From a virus (taxonomy: Duplodnaviria; Heunggongvirae; Uroviricota; Caudoviricetes): a stretch of 36,250 bases of DNA. How positions within the stretch are numbered: position 1 is the stretch's first letter; each line of letters begins with the position of its first letter. The position numbers and the translations under genes are program-made. Below, one piece after another: positions 1 to 34,888 of the stretch. The DNA is taken from IMG/VR virus record IMGVR_UViG_2870490042_000002; one strand, 5' to 3'. Below the pieces are notes generated by a model. It was not told the origin of the DNA, ran no database searches, and saw nothing but the letters and a program-made list of their open reading frames with translations.

Positions 1-318
1 ATGAAAAAGATAGCTGCTATATCATTAATTAGTATTTTTATTATGTCTGGTTGTGCTGTGCATAATGATGAGACAAGTATCGGTAAATTTGGTCTTGCAT
101 ATAAAAGTAATATTCAGCGTAAACTCGATAACCAATACTACACCGAAGCCGAAGCTTCTTTAGCCAGGGGTAGAATATCTGGTGCAGAAAATATAGTAAA
201 AAATGATGCAACTCATTTCTGTGTTACTCAGGGCAAAAAAATGCAAATAGTTGAGCTGAAGACAGAAGGTGTAGGATTACATGGTGTCGCTCGTCTGACA
301 TTCAAATGTGGAGAGTGA
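1..318 (+). CDS. Putative small lipoprotein (105 aa), AT-rich, lying just outside attL
   Basis: ORF track 1..318. N-terminus MKKIAAISLISIFIMSGC has a signal peptide and lipobox-like SGC. Position matches the yegR-like gene next to the P2 remnant in E. coli K-12 as recalled from memory, not verified. Confidence 0.5.
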   Translation: MKKIAAISLISIFIMSGCAVHNDETSIGKFGLAYKSNIQRKLDNQYYTEAEASLARGRISGAENIVKNDATHFCVTQGKKMQIVELKTEGVGLHGVARLTFKCGE

Positions 319-470
319 GAATATTTTTTGGTAAGCGTCAAATATGCGCGTTCTGGCTGTGCGTAGCCGGAACCTGTGGGAGCACGATGCCGATAAGTGA
401 AAGGCATCGTGCTATGAAGGAGGATTCTATCGATGTGGTCAATGGAAGACGGTTACCAGAGATAGGGCTT

Positions 471-499
471 ATGCATAAAAAAATAAGCCCGTGTAAGGG
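471..499. repeat. attL core: direct repeat of the cyaR 3' end (AAAAAATAAGCCCGTGTAAGGG)
   Basis: 22-bp exact repeat at 478-499 and 34718-34739, preceded by ATGCA in both copies. Matches the P2 att core as recalled. Two TGTGGACA arm-type repeats lie at 593-610 on the int side. Confidence 0.6.
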
Positions 500-583
500 C
501 GTTTATATACCCTTACAACAGGGGCTTTCAGCGGTGCAATGCGGGTTTGCGCGGCACGCAAGACCACTGAAAGCCATAATAAA

Positions 584-1597
584 CTACCCTACTGTGGACA
601 CTGTGTGGACACTCTGAGAGCCAACACCACCACGTAGAGGATTAAGCGTTATCGCGTCCTGTAGGTACTCAGGGGCGAAGTGCGCATATGTCATTGTCTG
701 CTCAATTCTTGAATGCCCAAGTATTCTCTGAAGCGTGATAATGTTGCCTCCGTTTATCATAAAGTGCGTGGCGAAGCTGTGCCGCAATGCGTGCGTAGCC
801 TGACCCGGTGGTAGGTCGGGTTTCAGCTCCTTCATTAGCCGTCTGAACGCGGGATAGTTAGCATCAGTGAACAGATAGCCACGCTTACCCGTTGTGATCA
901 TTGTTGCCAGTTCCTCGGATATAGGAACGGTTCGCGGCTTGTTGGTTTTTGTCTTAACGAAAGTGACGCGATTTTGAATGATATTTTCCGCTTTCAGTTT
1001 TGCTGCCTCACTCCATCTCGCGCCGGTGCTAAGGCAAAGAATCGCAATTTTTTTATTATCACCGTCCACTTTTGACAGCAGAAGCGCGATCTCCTCTTGC
1101 GTCAGGTAGCCGGTTTCTGGCTTATCCTCTTTGAGTCTTTTAAGACCTCGGAAAGGATGCTCCCCGAAAAATAGCTCCGCATCTATCAACGCGGTAAACA
1201 TCCCGCTAAGACACGTTAAATCACGATTTATACTCGATGGCTTGATGCCTTGAGAACGCCGCACAGTGCTGTATTGGCTTATCAATGACTTAGTAATCTG
1301 AAAGGCACAAGGGTCACTGGTTATCTTTGTGAACAACTCTAACTTGCCCAGGTAATCTCGGCCGTGAGTTTCATACTTGCCTTTCAGCTCCCACCAGATT
1401 TTTGTTAGCTCTGACAGATGCCGCTTATCTGTCGGTTTCGCCAACCATTCTTTGTTGTGATGGTTGTACTGGGTATGCTTCTCGAAAGCGATAGCTTCGC
1501 TTTTCTTGTCAAATTTCCTGCGGATGCGCTTTCCGTTGCGCCCTGCAGGTCTAATGTCCACTTCATAACGACCATCATCGAGCTTTTTAACAGACAT
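584..1597 (-). CDS. int: Tyrosine integrase, P2 Int-like (337 aa)
   Basis: ORF 584..1630 trimmed to the internal start MSVKKLDDGRYEVDIRP. Near-colinear with P2 Int as recalled, including C-terminal HALRHSFATHFM...LGHSRIEQTMTYAHF (catalytic R, H-x-x-R, Y). Confidence 0.9.
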   Translation of the reverse strand: MSVKKLDDGRYEVDIRPAGRNGKRIRRKFDKKSEAIAFEKHTQYNHHNKEWLAKPTDKRHLSELTKIWWELKGKYETHGRDYLGKLELFTKITSDPCAFQITKSLISQYSTVRRSQGIKPSSINRDLTCLSGMFTALIDAELFFGEHPFRGLKRLKEDKPETGYLTQEEIALLLSKVDGDNKKIAILCLSTGARWSEAAKLKAENIIQNRVTFVKTKTNKPRTVPISEELATMITTGKRGYLFTDANYPAFRRLMKELKPDLPPGQATHALRHSFATHFMINGGNIITLQRILGHSRIEQTMTYAHFAPEYLQDAITLNPLRGGVGSQSVHTVSTVG

Positions 1598-1693
1598 AAA
1601 GCCTCCCGATGATGTTACTGCGTACTTCAATTTCCTGATTTAAATAACAAAAACTCACCGTGCATTTACTGCACAGATAAGCACCGTAAATGG

Positions 1694-6642: not shown

Positions 6643-6924
6643 CAAACGCCGCCGGTGCTGAAACTTGTTTTCAGTGCCAGCGGTGTTGAGCAACGAGCCC
6701 CGCGAGACGTTAGCCTGCACCGTAGAGACCACCCCCAACCGGCACGATTAAAGTCGGTTTTATTATGCAATTTTCCCACAATTTCCCGGTTTTTTAGCCG
6801 TGCATGCAACAGGTGCATTTTTTTGCATGCGTTGGGGATGCCTGTTCTGGCCGCGCGCCGCCAGAGCAGGCGCGGATCCAGAGTGGTCATGCAACTGCAT
6901 TAAAAACGACCCATAAAGCGGGCA

Positions 6925-6943
6925 GGCGAGGCGGGGTAAGCAT
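6925..6943. other. cos site (19-nt cohesive-end sequence GGCGAGGCGGGGTAAGCAT)
   Basis: 17 of 19 identity to the P2 cohesive end GGCGAGGCGGGGAAAGCAC as recalled. Located on the Q side of the packaging genes. Confidence 0.6.
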
Positions 6944-7014: not shown

Positions 7015-8571
7015 ATGATTAAGGGTATAGGTCTTCAAAACTTCAGGAGCTTTGTCAACAAAACGTTTATTGATTTAAAACCAATTACAGTATTTGTTGG
7101 TAAGAACAGCAGTGGTAAAAGTTCCCTATTGCGCACATTTCCTTTACTTCGTCAATCTGTAGAAGAAAATACTACTGGCCCAATACTATGGTATGGGAGA
7201 TATGTGGATTTTGGCGATTTTACAGATGTACTTTCCCGAAAGTCTGAAAAAAAAGAAATTACGTTTAGTTTTTCACTCTCAATTCCGCCAGAGGTTTCAC
7301 AAAGATATACATATTATCGTTCTACTGATTTAGCAAAGCAACCAACAGATATTGAAGCAGAGTTAACTGTTTACTCTAAAGATAAAAAAACAAAAACGAA
7401 AACGATTAAGCTTATATTGGCTGATTTAACAATATTTATTTCAATGGATGAGAGTAGTAATGTTAAATTACTCATTGAATCAGATGATAAAACAATAGAG
7501 CGTGATGGGATAATAGCTAAAAATCTTGGGCAGTTCATACCAAATCTAATTTTGAAGGGTAAGGAAGACAGTCCTCCTCCAAGCACATCATTCTATTTGA
7601 GACATTCTAGGCATGACAGGGCGTTAGAATTGTCATTTATTGATTCAGCGGCGAAATATATAAAGAAATATTTCCATACTAAATCTGATATAAATCAAGT
7701 GACAGAGGCATTCAAAAGAATTGGCTTTATACCCAAAGCGTACGCTAGTAAATTAGTTGCTTTTCTATTTAAGGAACAAAAAGTTTTTAGTAGAAACTTT
7801 GAATTTCAACATGATGAAATAATGAATGAGTTATATCCATTTATAATTGGATGGAATATTAATAATCTTATAGATATAATAAATACATCCTTGTCAGATT
7901 CATTCAGAAATGTAAAGTACATAGCTCCACTGCGTGCTACATCAGAAAGATTTTATCGTTTTCAAGATTTACAGGTTAATGAGATAGATCATACTGGTTC
8001 CAATCTTGCAATGCTTTTGAATTCATTAAGACCGGCTGATAAATCAAAATTTGAAGATTGGACAAAGTTAAATTTTGATTTCATTATCAAGGTTGAACAA
8101 AGTGGCTCTCACTTTGCAATTTTAATAAATACCGGTGAAAATAGTGAGAACTATAATGTTAGTGATATGGGGTTTGGTTATTCTCAGGTTTTGCCGATAG
8201 TTACAGCCATTTGGCTTGAGACAGAACGTCGTGCTACCACGGTTAGAAAACCTATAACATTTATCATTGAGCAGCCAGAATTGCATTTACATCCGTCATA
8301 TCAGCATAATTTAGCAAGTATTTTTGCAAAAGTAGTAACTAAAGCAAAAGAAAATAATGTAGATTTGAAGATAATTTTTGAGACACATAGCCAGACCATG
8401 ATTGAAGCACTTGGTGAATATATTGAGGAAAATGAAAGTCTTTCACAGGATGATATTTCAATACTGGTATTTGAAAAAGATGATAAGCAGCAGACTATAG
8501 TTAAGAAATCTTATTTTGACGAGAATGGTTTCCTAAAAAATTGGCCGGTTGGCTTTTTCTCGGGTAAGTAG
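7015..8571 (+). CDS. ABC/OLD-type ATPase (AAA_15/AAA_21-like), AriA-like candidate
   Basis: ORF 6943..8571 trimmed to ATG 7015 (RBS GGAG at 7004-7007; the longer ORF would run through cos). Walker A VFVGKNSSGKSS, Walker B-like FIIEQPELHLHP, H-loop FETHS. AT-rich. Confidence 0.8.
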   Translation: MIKGIGLQNFRSFVNKTFIDLKPITVFVGKNSSGKSSLLRTFPLLRQSVEENTTGPILWYGRYVDFGDFTDVLSRKSEKKEITFSFSLSIPPEVSQRYTYYRSTDLAKQPTDIEAELTVYSKDKKTKTKTIKLILADLTIFISMDESSNVKLLIESDDKTIERDGIIAKNLGQFIPNLILKGKEDSPPPSTSFYLRHSRHDRALELSFIDSAAKYIKKYFHTKSDINQVTEAFKRIGFIPKAYASKLVAFLFKEQKVFSRNFEFQHDEIMNELYPFIIGWNINNLIDIINTSLSDSFRNVKYIAPLRATSERFYRFQDLQVNEIDHTGSNLAMLLNSLRPADKSKFEDWTKLNFDFIIKVEQSGSHFAILINTGENSENYNVSDMGFGYSQVLPIVTAIWLETERRATTVRKPITFIIEQPELHLHPSYQHNLASIFAKVVTKAKENNVDLKIIFETHSQTMIEALGEYIEENESLSQDDISILVFEKDDKQQTIVKKSYFDENGFLKNWPVGFFSGK

Positions 8572-9689: not shown

Positions 9690-9716
9690 ATCACAGCCCC
9701 GATAAAGTGGGCTGTG
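9690..9716. terminator. Bidirectional hairpin between convergent cargo operon and Q
   Basis: Perfect 9-bp inverted repeat TCACAGCCC / GGGCTGTGA with a 9-nt loop, followed by a T-rich tract. Confidence 0.5.
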
Positions 9717-9781
9717 ATGTTATTATCTGTGGTTCTTGAGTTACAGGGCTGAATATAATGTTGAGATGTTTATTTTGAAAA

Positions 9782-33627: not shown

Positions 33628-34479
33628 TTGAACAATATCCCCATATCTACTCAATGGACTTTAGACGCTACGGGTGAAGTTGGACGCTCATCAGTAAATT
33701 CTGTTTATATGATTATATGTCCTGCGACCGGCTCGAAAGGATCTGGTTTTTTAATAGATAATGGGTTAATAGTAACGAACGAGCATGTTATCACTGGATG
33801 CTCTACAAATCAGATTTTCGCAATTTCAGCTTATGGACAGAAGATTCCAATTTCTCAAAAATGGATAGATTCTGATCGCGATTTAGCTGTGCTGAGACCT
33901 GCCATTACCCAGACTGGTGGGCTAAGTATTGTTAAGGATAATGATCTTAAAGTTGGTGAATCAGTAACAACTTGGGGATACCCATTAGGATACAACGGTC
34001 CTGCACCGTTACTATCCGTTGGTTATCTAGCAGGATTTAACTCATACCAAACCGCCAAGGGACAAAAAAAACATCTAGTGGTAAATGGGGCATTTAACTC
34101 AGGAAATTCTGGTGGAGCTCTTTTAAAAGCTTCAGATAATAAAGTAATAGGTATTGTAGTGAGTAAGCATGCTCCTATCAGTCAATACCATCAATCAGCT
34201 ATTGAAGCTTTGTCTGAAAATATGAGTGGCGTCACCTATACCGCTACTAATGACGCTGGAGAAACTAAAAGTTTTGTAGAATCTCAAATTGTAGCAGAAT
34301 TATTGATTCATATGAGAAGTCTAACTCAAGTTATGATTGGAGAAGCAATTGCAGCAGAGGAATTACTTTCGATGCTTAGCGAAATTGACTTGAGTCCACC
34401 ACAATCTATGTCAAGAAATGCCTTATGTCATTGCGGGAGTGGAAAACGCTTCAAAGAATGTCATGGAAAGATATCCTAG
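33628..34479 (+). CDS. Trypsin-like (S1) serine protease with C-terminal SEC-C zinc-binding motif; cargo gene
   Basis: TTG start with RBS AAGGAG 5 nt upstream. Triad candidates His in VTNEHV, Asp in DLAVL, Ser in GNSGGAL. C-terminal CHCGSGKRFKECHG. No signal peptide. AT-rich. Confidence 0.75.
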   Translation: MNNIPISTQWTLDATGEVGRSSVNSVYMIICPATGSKGSGFLIDNGLIVTNEHVITGCSTNQIFAISAYGQKIPISQKWIDSDRDLAVLRPAITQTGGLSIVKDNDLKVGESVTTWGYPLGYNGPAPLLSVGYLAGFNSYQTAKGQKKHLVVNGAFNSGNSGGALLKASDNKVIGIVVSKHAPISQYHQSAIEALSENMSGVTYTATNDAGETKSFVESQIVAELLIHMRSLTQVMIGEAIAAEELLSMLSEIDLSPPQSMSRNALCHCGSGKRFKECHGKIS

Positions 34480-34628
34480 TAAGTACTTATATCAGTCTGA
34501 TAATGGCTCTTCAAATACAAAAGACTTCACTTACTCTGCCGTCATCTCTGCTCCTCGCTTATTGCAGACGGTCAAAAGCTTACAAGCTGTTGACTAGATG
34601 TGTTCTTACATTGTCAGTTAAAACAAAA

Positions 34629-34651
34629 GCCCCGCAAATGCGGGGCTTTTT
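34629..34651 (+). terminator. Rho-independent terminator after the protease cargo gene
   Basis: GCCCCGC-aaat-GCGGGGC followed by TTTTT. Near-identical to the terminator after ogr that is split by IS150. Confidence 0.55.
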
Positions 34652-34712
34652 GTATCGATGTGGTCAATGTGTGGACATTGATAGAAATAAATCCATTTAT
34701 TTCAGTAATTTA

Positions 34713-34739
34713 CATGCAAAAAATAAGCCCGTGTAAGGG
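34713..34739. repeat. attR core (22-bp direct repeat of attL core plus ATGCA), also the 3' end of cyaR
   Basis: Exact repeat of 478-499. Preceded by TGTGGACA (34668-34675) and TATCGATGTGGTCAATG arm sequence. Confidence 0.6.
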
Positions 34740-34804
34740 AGATTACACAGGCTAAGGAGGTGGTTCCTGGTACAGCTAGCATTTTATGGGTTATGTTTTT
34801 CAGC
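34718..34804 (-). ncRNA. cyaR: CyaR (RyeE) Hfq-dependent sRNA, 87 nt
   Basis: Reverse complement reads GCUGAAAAACAUAACCCAUAAAAUGCUAGCUGUACCAGGAACCACCUCCUUAGCCUGUGUAAUCUCCCUUACACGGGCUUAUUUUUU, matching E. coli CyaR as recalled, with terminator hairpin and U-tail. Confidence 0.75.
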
Positions 34805-34888
34805 GAAACGGATGATAACCTTAATAAATGCAGCTGTATGTGATCGGTTTCTAAGAATTTTCCATCCGGGAAAAATAATCGAAATTAA

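What the first reader, a model, noticed from the sequence alone, without database searches (positions are those of the whole stretch)
382..412. Perfect 10-bp inverted repeat hairpin between the lipoprotein gene and attL
GCACGATGCC-(11 nt)-GGCATCGTGC forms a stable stem-loop about 65 nt downstream of the lipoprotein stop without a U-tract. It could be a Rho-dependent or protein-assisted terminator, an RNA stability element, or an Int/IHF-associated structure.
Basis: seen in the sequence. Interest (0 to 1): 0.2.

Follow-up and report, generated by a model that had tools for sequence, protein, structure and literature searches.

The report
Palindrome in an old prophage scar
The hairpin is real, but it is a single-copy palindrome of the E. 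coli chromosome sitting at the seam of two ancient P2-like prophage leftovers next to the cyaR phage attachment site, with no sign that it is a terminator, a repeat family or an integrase site, so it is ordinary.

Summary
The inverted repeat exists. It is 11 bp, not 10: arms 381-391 and 403-413, an 11-nt loop, about -20 kcal/mol, no U-tract. Shuffles give 0.17 such repeats per window.

It is not part of the resident P2-like prophage. It lies in core E. coli DNA between yegR and the cyaR attachment site, in 5414 of 5426 complete genomes, once per genome. That rules out REP-like spread.

The spacer is a layered prophage fossil:
- 322-381 is homologous to the cos-proximal right end of P2/186-type phages.
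- 429-475 is a decayed P arm with an intact Int arm-type repeat.
- The palindrome starts exactly where cos-type homology, and homology to a sister Escherichia lineage, stops.

Twenty-five natural haplotypes show no compensatory changes. The stem varies as often as its flanks. It matches no Rfam family, REP consensus, IHF consensus or Int arm-type repeat. Published K-12 Term-seq lists no 3' end there.

The + strand downstream is G-rich, a poor Rho substrate. The - strand is C-rich and carries a mapped Rho-termination zone.

Best reading: a relic palindrome at a rearrangement seam. At most it passively blocks 3' exonucleases on read-through RNA. Interest is low.

The parts
1..318 (+). yegR, a 105-aa lipoprotein gene of the E. 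coli chromosome
   Evidence: ORF. Annotated yegR in RefSeq genomes.
322..381 (.). Fossil of the cos-proximal right end of a P2/186-type phage. It includes a second hairpin (350-358 with 365-373) that is also present next to cos in phage 186 and in the resident prophage (window ~6838-6868).
   Evidence: A 49-nt ungapped alignment to the phage 186 right end scores 50, against a null of 23 +/- 4.1 with a maximum of 41. nhmmer E-values are 0.02, 0.0024 and 5.5e-5 for three alleles in 1.47 Mb. A cos profile HMM ends its alignment at 378-385. A 23-mer from phage 186 matches 349-371 with 3 mismatches, with 0 expected.
381..413 (.). The finding: a perfect 11-bp palindrome with an 11-nt loop (arms 381-391 and 403-413).
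   Evidence: Single copy in 5414 of 5426 E. coli genomes. It starts where homology to cos and to lineage L007 stops.
414..428 (.). A 15-nt spacer, ATGAAGGAGGATTCT. Its SD-like AAGGAGG (417-423) is not conserved among alleles.
   Evidence: Alleles read AAGGAGG, AAGGGAG or AAGGGGG.
429..475 (.). Fossil P arm of a P2-like attP. ATCGATGTGGTCAATG (429-444) carries one intact Int arm-type repeat (TGTGGTCA); the second repeat has decayed.
   Evidence: The 16-mer is identical to the resident phage P arm at 34654-34669. It aligns with the phage P arm and the K-12 remnant P arm. Some strains have a longer variant closer to the phage. All 25 distinct P2-like right-end sequences (27 loci) carrying this P arm have the motif.
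478..499 (.). attL core, the duplicated 3' end of cyaR
   Evidence: 22-bp exact repeat with 34718-34739.
584..1630 (-). Integrase of the resident P2-like prophage. The P' arm repeats TGTGGACA lie at 593-600 and 604-611.
   Evidence: Pfam Int_N and Phage_integrase. Repeats. Prophage similarity to Peduoviridae.
34625..34650 (+). Terminator-like hairpin of the resident prophage (11-bp stem, 4-nt loop, then TTTTTGT), directly abutting its P arm. This is the modern structure in the position analogous to the finding.
34721..34806 (-). cyaR sRNA gene at attR
   Evidence: Rfam RF00112, 100.7 bits.

Best explanation
The hairpin is a single-copy palindrome of the E. coli core chromosome, not of the resident prophage.

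Context (shown). It lies in the ~160-bp spacer between the convergent genes yegR and cyaR. That spacer is a layered fossil of earlier P2/186-type prophages: a cos-proximal fragment (322-381) joined to a decayed attP P arm (429-475) and the att core. The palindrome plus 15 nt fill the seam between the two fragments.

Origin (inferred). In the E. coli stem lineage a later prophage was deleted down to its last ~50 nt plus its P arm. The palindrome is either what remains of that phage's right-end sequence, where modern relatives carry a terminator hairpin, or a product of the deletion or template-switch event itself.

Present effect (inferred, not shown). It cannot act as an intrinsic terminator. 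In RNA from either strand it forms a -19 to -21 kcal/mol stem-loop. The only plausible consequence is passive: a stop for 3'-to-5' exonucleases, or a pause, on yegR read-through transcripts, or on cyaR or int read-through transcripts on the other strand. It shows no sign of being maintained by selection.
For: - Core-genome, single-copy status: 5417 of 5426 genomes match the region, including empty sites and K-12. The hairpin has a median of 1 and a maximum of 2 places per genome.
- Fossil, left piece: 322-381 is homologous to the cos-proximal right end of phage 186 and of the resident prophage.
- Sister lineage: L007 keeps the same fossil up to the cos cut site (E 3.9e-11). It is unalignable with E. 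coli from exactly position 381 onward.
- Fossil, right piece: the 16-mer at 429-444 is identical to modern P arms. In 24 of 25 distinct modern P2-like right-end sequences a G+C-rich hairpin sits 2-9 nt upstream of that motif.
- No constraint: across 25 haplotypes from 117 copies there are 0 pairs with changes on both sides, and covariation is below the shuffle control. Variable columns are 5 of 22 in the stem and 14 of 65 in the flanks.
- No terminator features. No Rfam family.
- No 3' end in 2167800-2167999 in the curated K-12 Term-seq table.
Against: - A perfect 11-bp stem is improbable by chance.
- It is intact in the two major haplotypes, which differ at about 8 other sites in the spacer. 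This fits weak selection as well as a recent origin.
- The 47 nt at 382-428 have no detectable homologue in any phage record or IMG/VR contig outside this same chromosomal locus. The 'relic of a phage right end' origin is therefore inferred from position only.
- The stem (11 bp), the loop (11 nt) and the 15-nt distance to the P arm all differ from modern phage terminators (stems of about 6-9 bp, loops of about 3-7 nt, 2-9 nt away).
- yegR is H-NS-associated (PMC3946193), so the absence of mapped 3' ends is weak evidence.
- The haplotype sample is partly ascertained by an exact-stem search.
Confidence: 0.5

Rival explanations
1. It is a selected protective stem-loop of the yegR 3' UTR. yegR transcription ends diffusely downstream, exonucleases trim back to the stem, and the stem sets the mature 3' end and mRNA half-life. 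This is the class described by Dar and Sorek 2018.
For: - A stable U-less stem-loop lies 62 nt after the stop codon.
- No intrinsic terminator exists for yegR on the + strand before cyaR.
- The whole 152-nt 3' region is unusually structured (z -5.6).
- PMC6061677 (abstract) describes exactly such structures at Rho-dependent 3' ends.
- The stem is perfect in both major haplotypes.
Against: - In that class the rut site lies just downstream of the stem. Here the + strand downstream is G-rich and C-poor (C/G 0.4-0.6).
- No 3' end is recorded there in K-12 Term-seq.
- There is no covariation, and the stem is as polymorphic as its flanks.
- The structure is absent from the sister lineage that has yegR.
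Confidence: 0.2
2. It acts on the opposite strand, as part of a Rho-dependent insulator. The insulator would stop read-through from cyaR, or from int in lysogens, running antisense into yegR. The stem would serve as a pause or as the protected end.
For: - The - strand RNA across 500 to 260 is C-rich and G-poor.
- PMC7815308 supplementary file 2 lists a bicyclomycin-sensitive termination region on the MG1655 + strand. Its peak at 2167873 corresponds to window ~434 on the - strand, 21 nt before the stem.
- The - strand hairpin folds at -19.3 kcal/mol.
Against: - That Rho score is computed from 800-nt windows, so its position is coarse.
- No precise Term-seq 3' end is listed near the stem.
- Rho termination does not need a hairpin.
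- There is no conservation signal.
Confidence: 0.1
3. It is a DNA operator: a dimeric DNA-binding protein recognises the two 11-bp half-sites, whose centres are 22 bp apart.
For: The dyad symmetry is perfect and the spacing is two helical turns.
Against: - No second site was found in the window or in E. coli genomes at BLAST sensitivity.
- There is no adjacent promoter.
- It lies between two convergent 3' ends.
- Natural alleles break the inner half-site positions.
Confidence: 0.05
4. It is an intrinsic or factor-assisted terminator of yegR.
For: A G+C-rich stem lies downstream of a gene.
Against: - There is no U-tract.
- The 11-nt loop is outside the usual 3-8 nt.
- It is not called by the terminator scan.
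- No 3' end is listed in Term-seq.
Confidence: 0.03
5. It is an accessory site for Int, IHF or Cox in integration or excision at attL.
For: It lies near attL, and the neighbouring 429-444 segment does carry a fossil Int arm-type repeat.
Against: - The hairpin has no arm-type repeat and no IHF consensus.
- It lies on the bacterial side, 64 nt from the core.
- It is identical in unoccupied sites.
- It has no counterpart in any phage attP.
Confidence: 0.03
6. It is a REP/MITE-like dispersed repeat.
For: It is a palindromic extragenic sequence.
Against: - There is one place per genome.
- Similarity to REP consensus sequences is not significant (p 0.27-0.94). The consensus sequences were recalled from memory.
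- All IMG/VR matches are this same locus.
Confidence: 0.01

Closest known systems
U-less protective stem-loops at steady-state 3' ends of Rho-terminated E. coli mRNAs (Dar and Sorek 2018, PMC6061677)
   Same: A stable stem-loop without a U-tract, a short distance after a stop codon. The gene lacks an intrinsic terminator.
   Different: There is no mapped 3' end. The downstream + strand is G-rich rather than rut-like. There is no evidence of selection. The structure lies in prophage-derived DNA.
Right-end terminator hairpin of P2-like phages that abuts the P-arm Int sites (for example window 34625-34650, and the loci)
   Same: The same relative position, immediately upstream of the ATCGATGTGGTCAATG arm-site motif, and the same + orientation of the module.
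   Different: No sequence similarity. The stem is 11 bp with an 11-nt loop, against stems of about 6-9 bp with loops of about 3-7 nt. It lies 15 nt from the motif, against 2-9 nt. It has no T run.
Cryptic P2 remnant ogrK-yegZ (PR-X) at the same locus in E. coli K-12
   Same: A prophage at the cyaR site reduced by deletion to its right end, leaving a usable att core. This shows that the layering process operates at this locus (PMC3032704).
   Different: The K-12 remnant is strain-specific and still has genes. The fossil around the hairpin is far more decayed, has no genes, and is present in essentially all E. coli.
REP/BIME extragenic palindromes
   Same: An intergenic palindrome between convergent genes.
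   Different: It is single-copy and has no consensus similarity.

Membership tests
Intrinsic (Rho-independent) terminator | G+C-rich stem with a short loop (about 3-8 nt) | tested here: not met
   The stem qualifies (11 bp, 7 G-C pairs), but the loop is 11 nt. The terminator scan does not call it.
Intrinsic (Rho-independent) terminator | A U/T run immediately 3' of the stem | tested here: not met
   The + strand tail is ATGAAGGAGG and the - strand tail is CCCACAGGTT.
Intrinsic (Rho-independent) terminator | A transcript 3' end at the stem base | tested here: inconclusive
   There is no entry for 2167800-2167999 in the curated K-12 Term-seq table of PMC7815308, and none in the supplements of PMC10687069. 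yegR may simply be silent.
Protective stem-loop of Rho-terminated transcripts (Dar and Sorek class) | A stable stem-loop without a U-tract downstream of the gene | tested here: met
   -20.8 kcal/mol, 62 nt after the stop codon.
Protective stem-loop of Rho-terminated transcripts (Dar and Sorek class) | A C-rich, G-poor rut region just downstream on the same strand | tested here: not met
   On the + strand, C/G is 0.40-0.56 across 410-499, both in the lysogen and in the empty site. The - strand is C-rich instead.
Protective stem-loop of Rho-terminated transcripts (Dar and Sorek class) | A precise steady-state 3' end at the stem, sensitive to bicyclomycin and to PNPase or RNase II | not testable with these tools
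   The only available datum is a coarse Rho region on the opposite strand at window ~434.
REP/BIME | Many dispersed copies per genome | tested here: not met
   Median 1 and maximum 2 places per genome in 5414 genomes. Only near-identical copies would be detected.
REP/BIME | Similarity to the REP consensus | tested here: not met
   Local alignment gives p of 0.27-0.94 against shuffles. The consensus sequences were recalled from memory.
P2-type att-site protein-binding elements | Int arm-type repeat TGTGGACA, IHF consensus WATCAANNNNTTR, or location in the core or a phage arm | tested here: not met
   None lies in 381-413. The hairpin is 64 nt outside the core, on the bacterial side.
Prophage fossil (P2/186-type) | Significant homology to phage sequence | tested here: inconclusive
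   Met for both flanks: 322-381 matches the cos-proximal region, and 429-444 matches the P arm 16 of 16. Not met for 382-428 itself, which has no phage homologue.
Structured RNA family (Rfam) | A match to a covariance model | tested here: not met
   Only cyaR passes the gathering threshold in the window. Nothing overlaps 381-413 even at E of 10 or less.
Conserved RNA structure | Compensatory base-pair changes | tested here: not met
   0 of 11 pairs show changes on both sides in 25 haplotypes, and the covariation score is below the shuffle control. Power is low at this divergence.

The most novel reading that the evidence does not exclude
The palindrome is an E. coli-specific functional element kept since the species arose. 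It would be a strand-symmetric RNA stem-loop acting as an insulator between the convergent yegR and cyaR genes. On one strand it would protect the 3' end of yegR mRNA. On the other, with Rho, it would mark the end of cyaR read-through or, in lysogens, int read-through. Together with the adjacent fossil Int arm-type repeat, it would make the universal E. coli cyaR attB a rebuilt, phage-derived site that influences how modern P2-like phages integrate or excise.
Probability: 0.12. Interest if true: 0.3.

Novelty: new member of a known kind. Interest (0 to 1): 0.12.

Why it matters
The hairpin itself matters little. It adds one more U-less intergenic stem-loop with no demonstrated role.

The context is mildly useful. 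The 'bacterial' arm of the main P2-type attachment site at cyaR is itself made of prophage remains (a cos-proximal piece, a seam and a P arm) in essentially all E. coli. Prophage-boundary callers and att-site analyses can therefore mistake fossil arm sites and hairpins for parts of the resident phage.

It also illustrates how repeated integration and deletion at one sRNA gene rebuilds the flanking chromosome.

Tried and rejected
- REP-like family: rejected on copy number and consensus similarity.
- Part of the resident prophage or of any known phage: the only 'phage' records that match (AY639599, ON470606) are prophage records that include the yegR flank. All IMG/VR hits are the same chromosomal locus. 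No variant with a 3-10-nt loop exists in IMG/VR.
- Small ORF or leader peptide (AAGGAGG at 417-423, ATG at 433, 10 codons): the SD-like sequence is not conserved among alleles, so it is probably chance.
- Homology of the hairpin to the 3' end of a decayed second lipoprotein gene: MAFFT suggested it, but tblastn supports only the N-terminal and middle remnants in the 168-bp indel, not the hairpin region.
- Homology of 382-428 to the last 49 nt before the cos cut site, or to the cohesive end: by eye it is plausible as three short blocks. It is not significant in local alignment (p 0.2-0.98), and nhmmer alignments stop at 378-385.
- Covariation between E. coli and L007 (an apparent G-C to C-G swap): it depended on an arbitrary alignment, and MAFFT and folding do not support an equivalent hairpin in L007.
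- 3'-end datasets: PMC9023263, PMC11092163, PMC12259150 and PMC6061677 have no supplementary tables held. PMC10687069 has no entry.

Full report
**1. The observation**

The window opens with a 105-aa lipoprotein ORF (1-318). Downstream lies a perfect inverted repeat: AGCACGATGCC (381-391), an 11-nt loop, then GGCATCGTGCT (403-413). No T run follows it on either strand, and a consensus terminator scan calls nothing between 319 and 500.

The isolated hairpin folds at -20.8 kcal/mol as + strand RNA and -19.3 as - strand RNA, and no shuffle folds as well. Perfect inverted repeats of at least 11 bp with loops of 3-20 nt occur 3 times in the window, against 0.17 expected from dinucleotide shuffles.

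**2. Where it is**

The window is E. coli chromosome carrying a P2-like (Peduoviridae) prophage.
- The ORF is yegR.
- cyaR is at 34721-34806 on the - strand (Rfam, 100.7 bits), followed by yegQ/trhP.
- A 22-bp direct repeat, 478-499 and 34718-34739, is the att core. It is the duplicated 3' end of cyaR.
- cyaR is a known P2-like insertion site, and K-12 holds the ogr-D' remnant there (PMC3032704; MG1655 annotation).

Positions 1 to ~499 match 5417 of 5426 complete E. coli genomes. These include strains with an empty site (L001) and K-12 (L002). The hairpin is therefore core chromosomal DNA between two convergent genes, yegR and cyaR. It is not part of the resident phage. A 51-nt query centred on it finds one place per genome (median 1, maximum 2), so it is not a dispersed repeat. 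It has no significant similarity to REP consensus sequences, which I recalled from memory.

**3. The spacer is a layered prophage fossil**

*Right piece.* The 16-mer ATCGATGTGGTCAATG at 429-444 recurs in the resident phage's P arm at 34654-34669. There it is the first of two Int arm-type repeats (TGTGGTCA, ATG, TGTGGACA). The 'bacterial' arm 429-475 aligns with the P arms of the resident phage and of the K-12 remnant. Some strains carry a 15-nt longer form that is closer to the phage sequence.

*Left piece.* A divergent Escherichia lineage (L007; YegR about 90% identical; empty cyaR site) has a different ~136-nt segment in place of 382-475. That segment matches the extreme right end of phage 186 and its relatives.

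Following this lead gave these results:
- Window 322-371 aligns without gaps to the cos-proximal right end of phage 186. The score is 50, against a null of 23 +/- 4.1 with a maximum of 41.
- A 23-mer from phage 186 hits 349-371 with 3 mismatches, with 0 expected.
- nhmmer with the 186 cos junction against all 1.47 Mb fetched finds the true cos regions and L007 (E 3.9e-11). It also finds the E. coli spacer at 322-378/385, with E of 0.02, 0.0024 and 5.5e-5 for three alleles.
- A profile built from the phage 186 query plus 33 distinct cos regions gives the same end points. L007 aligns right up to the cos cut site. Every E. coli allele stops at 378-385.
- The resident prophage's own cos is at 6925-6943, with the homologous upstream sequence.

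The upstream hairpin at 350-373 is part of this conserved cos-proximal sequence.

*The seam.* The spacer therefore reads: cos-proximal fossil (322-381), then the palindrome plus 15 nt (381-428), then the P-arm fossil (429-475), then the core. The palindrome's first base is where homology to phage cos regions and to L007 ends.

The 47 nt at 382-428 have no homologue in the phage collection or in IMG/VR, apart from this same chromosomal locus captured in prophage records.

In 24 of 25 distinct modern P2-like right-end sequences carrying this P arm (27 loci), a G+C-rich terminator hairpin ends 2-9 nt upstream of ATCGATG. The palindrome occupies the analogous position, but it differs in sequence, stem length, loop length and spacing, and it lacks a T run.

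**4. Tests of function**

*Conservation.* I collected 117 copies in 25 haplotypes from genomes and IMG/VR. Part of this sample was ascertained by an exact-stem search, which biases it toward perfect stems.
- The two major haplotypes share the perfect stem but differ in two loop positions and about six flanking positions.
- Minor alleles carry one-sided changes. Three give G-U wobbles on the + strand and three break a pair. That is the roughly even split expected for neutral transitions in G-C pairs.
- No pair shows changes on both sides, and covariation is below the shuffle control.
- Variable columns are 5 of 22 in the stem and 14 of 65 in the flanks.

The weakest common allele still folds at -14.3 kcal/mol. 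There is no detectable constraint, although power is low at this divergence.

*Known families and sites.* No Rfam family matches. No IHF consensus or Int arm-type repeat lies in the hairpin.

*Composition.* The + strand from 260 to 500 is G-rich (C/G 0.4-0.6) in both the lysogen and the empty site. yegR read-through RNA would therefore be a poor Rho substrate, whereas the - strand RNA is C-rich.

*Published data.*
- The curated Term-seq table of Adams et al. 2021 (PMC7815308) has no 3' end in MG1655 2167800-2167999. The hairpin is at 2167894-2167926.
- Their bicyclomycin table lists a Rho-termination region on the MG1655 + strand, which is the window's - strand. Its peak at 2167873 corresponds to window ~434, with 800-nt resolution.
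- Another dataset had no entry. Four others had no supplementary tables held.
- yegR is listed as H-NS-associated and as the operon yegRZ (PMC3946193). Silence in these datasets is therefore weak evidence.

**5. Interpretation**

Shown:
- The palindrome is real, single-copy and core-chromosomal.
- It lies at the seam of two prophage-derived fragments.
- It lacks the features of a terminator, a REP element or an att protein-binding site.
- It has no covariation.

Inferred: the seam arose in the E. coli stem lineage. A later P2-like prophage integrated at the core and was then deleted down to its last tens of nucleotides plus its P arm. The K-12 ogrK-yegZ remnant shows the same process at an earlier stage. 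The palindrome is either the residue of that phage's right-end sequence or a by-product of the deletion, for example a template-switch 'perfecting' of a quasi-palindrome. I could not discriminate between these two origins.

The present-day effect I consider most likely is passive. A -19 to -21 kcal/mol stem-loop in any read-through RNA would stop 3' exonucleases, in the manner described for Rho-terminated mRNAs (PMC6061677). There is no evidence that it is maintained for that role.

I put this combined reading at about 0.5. A selected yegR 3'-UTR stabiliser is at about 0.2, and a - strand Rho-associated insulator at about 0.1. The operator, intrinsic terminator, Int/IHF and REP readings are each at 0.05 or below.

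**6. Comparison and novelty**

It works most like the U-less protective stem-loops of Rho-terminated transcripts, but it fails that class's rut-site criterion on the yegR strand and has no mapped end. By position it corresponds to the right-end terminator of P2-like phages, but it shares no sequence with them. It is one more example of known kinds of thing: an intergenic stem-loop and a prophage scar.

I did not find a description of the universal cos-plus-P-arm fossil at the E. coli cyaR attB in the papers I searched. It is a minor observation.

**7. Verdict**

Interest is low (0.12).

Noticed in passing
window 322-381 and 429-475; L007 3509-3715: The 'bacterial' arm of the cyaR attB is itself a fossil of P2/186-type prophages in essentially all E. 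coli. It consists of a cos-proximal right-end fragment and a decayed P arm that keeps one intact Int arm-type repeat. A sister Escherichia lineage keeps the cos-proximal fossil right up to the cos cut site.
   Followed up: yes
L003 1817-1990 (inserted relative to window ~318-330); L009 3322-3642; L010 998-1330: Some E. coli strains have a ~168-bp extra segment just after the yegR stop codon. It is the decayed remnant of a second, paralogous lipoprotein gene that is intact next to yegR homologues in a Cedecea genome and an Enterobacteriaceae MAG (tblastn E 2.6e-6). The window's allele has lost it.
   Followed up: partly
window 33628-34479 (+): A cargo gene lies at the right end of the prophage, just before the P arm. 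It encodes a 283-aa trypsin-like peptidase with a C-terminal SEC-C motif. Its protease domain resembles that of retron type XI RT-protease and PDC-M35A in PADLOC, so it is a possible defence-type moron.
   Followed up: partly
window ~434 on the - strand (MG1655 2167873, + strand): Published bicyclomycin data (PMC7815308, supplementary file 2) place a Rho-termination region on the strand running from cyaR toward yegR. This fits the strong C-over-G bias of that strand across 260-500.
   Followed up: partly
window 417-465: A perfect SD-like AAGGAGG (417-423) lies 9 nt upstream of an ATG (433) that opens a 10-codon ORF (MWSMEDGYQR). The SD-like sequence varies among alleles (AAGGGAG, AAGGGGG), and the ATG lies inside the fossil Int arm-site motif, so this is probably chance.
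   Followed up: partly
window 465-517: At attL the phage side supplies its own hairpin (TGTAAGGG / CCCTTACA, 492-499 with 510-517). On the - strand, with the retained cyaR tail, it forms a cyaR-terminator-like hairpin followed by a T run. This would terminate int transcripts at the junction.
   Followed up: no
L002 2993-3010 (K-12-type strains), corresponding to window ~495: In K-12 the deletion that left the ogrK-yegZ remnant has its left end inside the attL core. Homology with the window stops at ~495, directly joined to the gpD fragment.
   Followed up: partly
window 8041-8081 and 9690-9718: Two other perfect inverted repeats lie inside the prophage (12 bp with a 17-nt loop; 10 bp with a 9-nt loop). 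They were not examined.
   Followed up: no
window 325-339 with 449-463: The predicted + strand fold of 319-470 closes the three local hairpins with a 14-bp long-range helix (z -5.6 for the region). A common polymorphism at 454 (T/G) breaks one of its pairs. Its significance is unknown.
   Followed up: no
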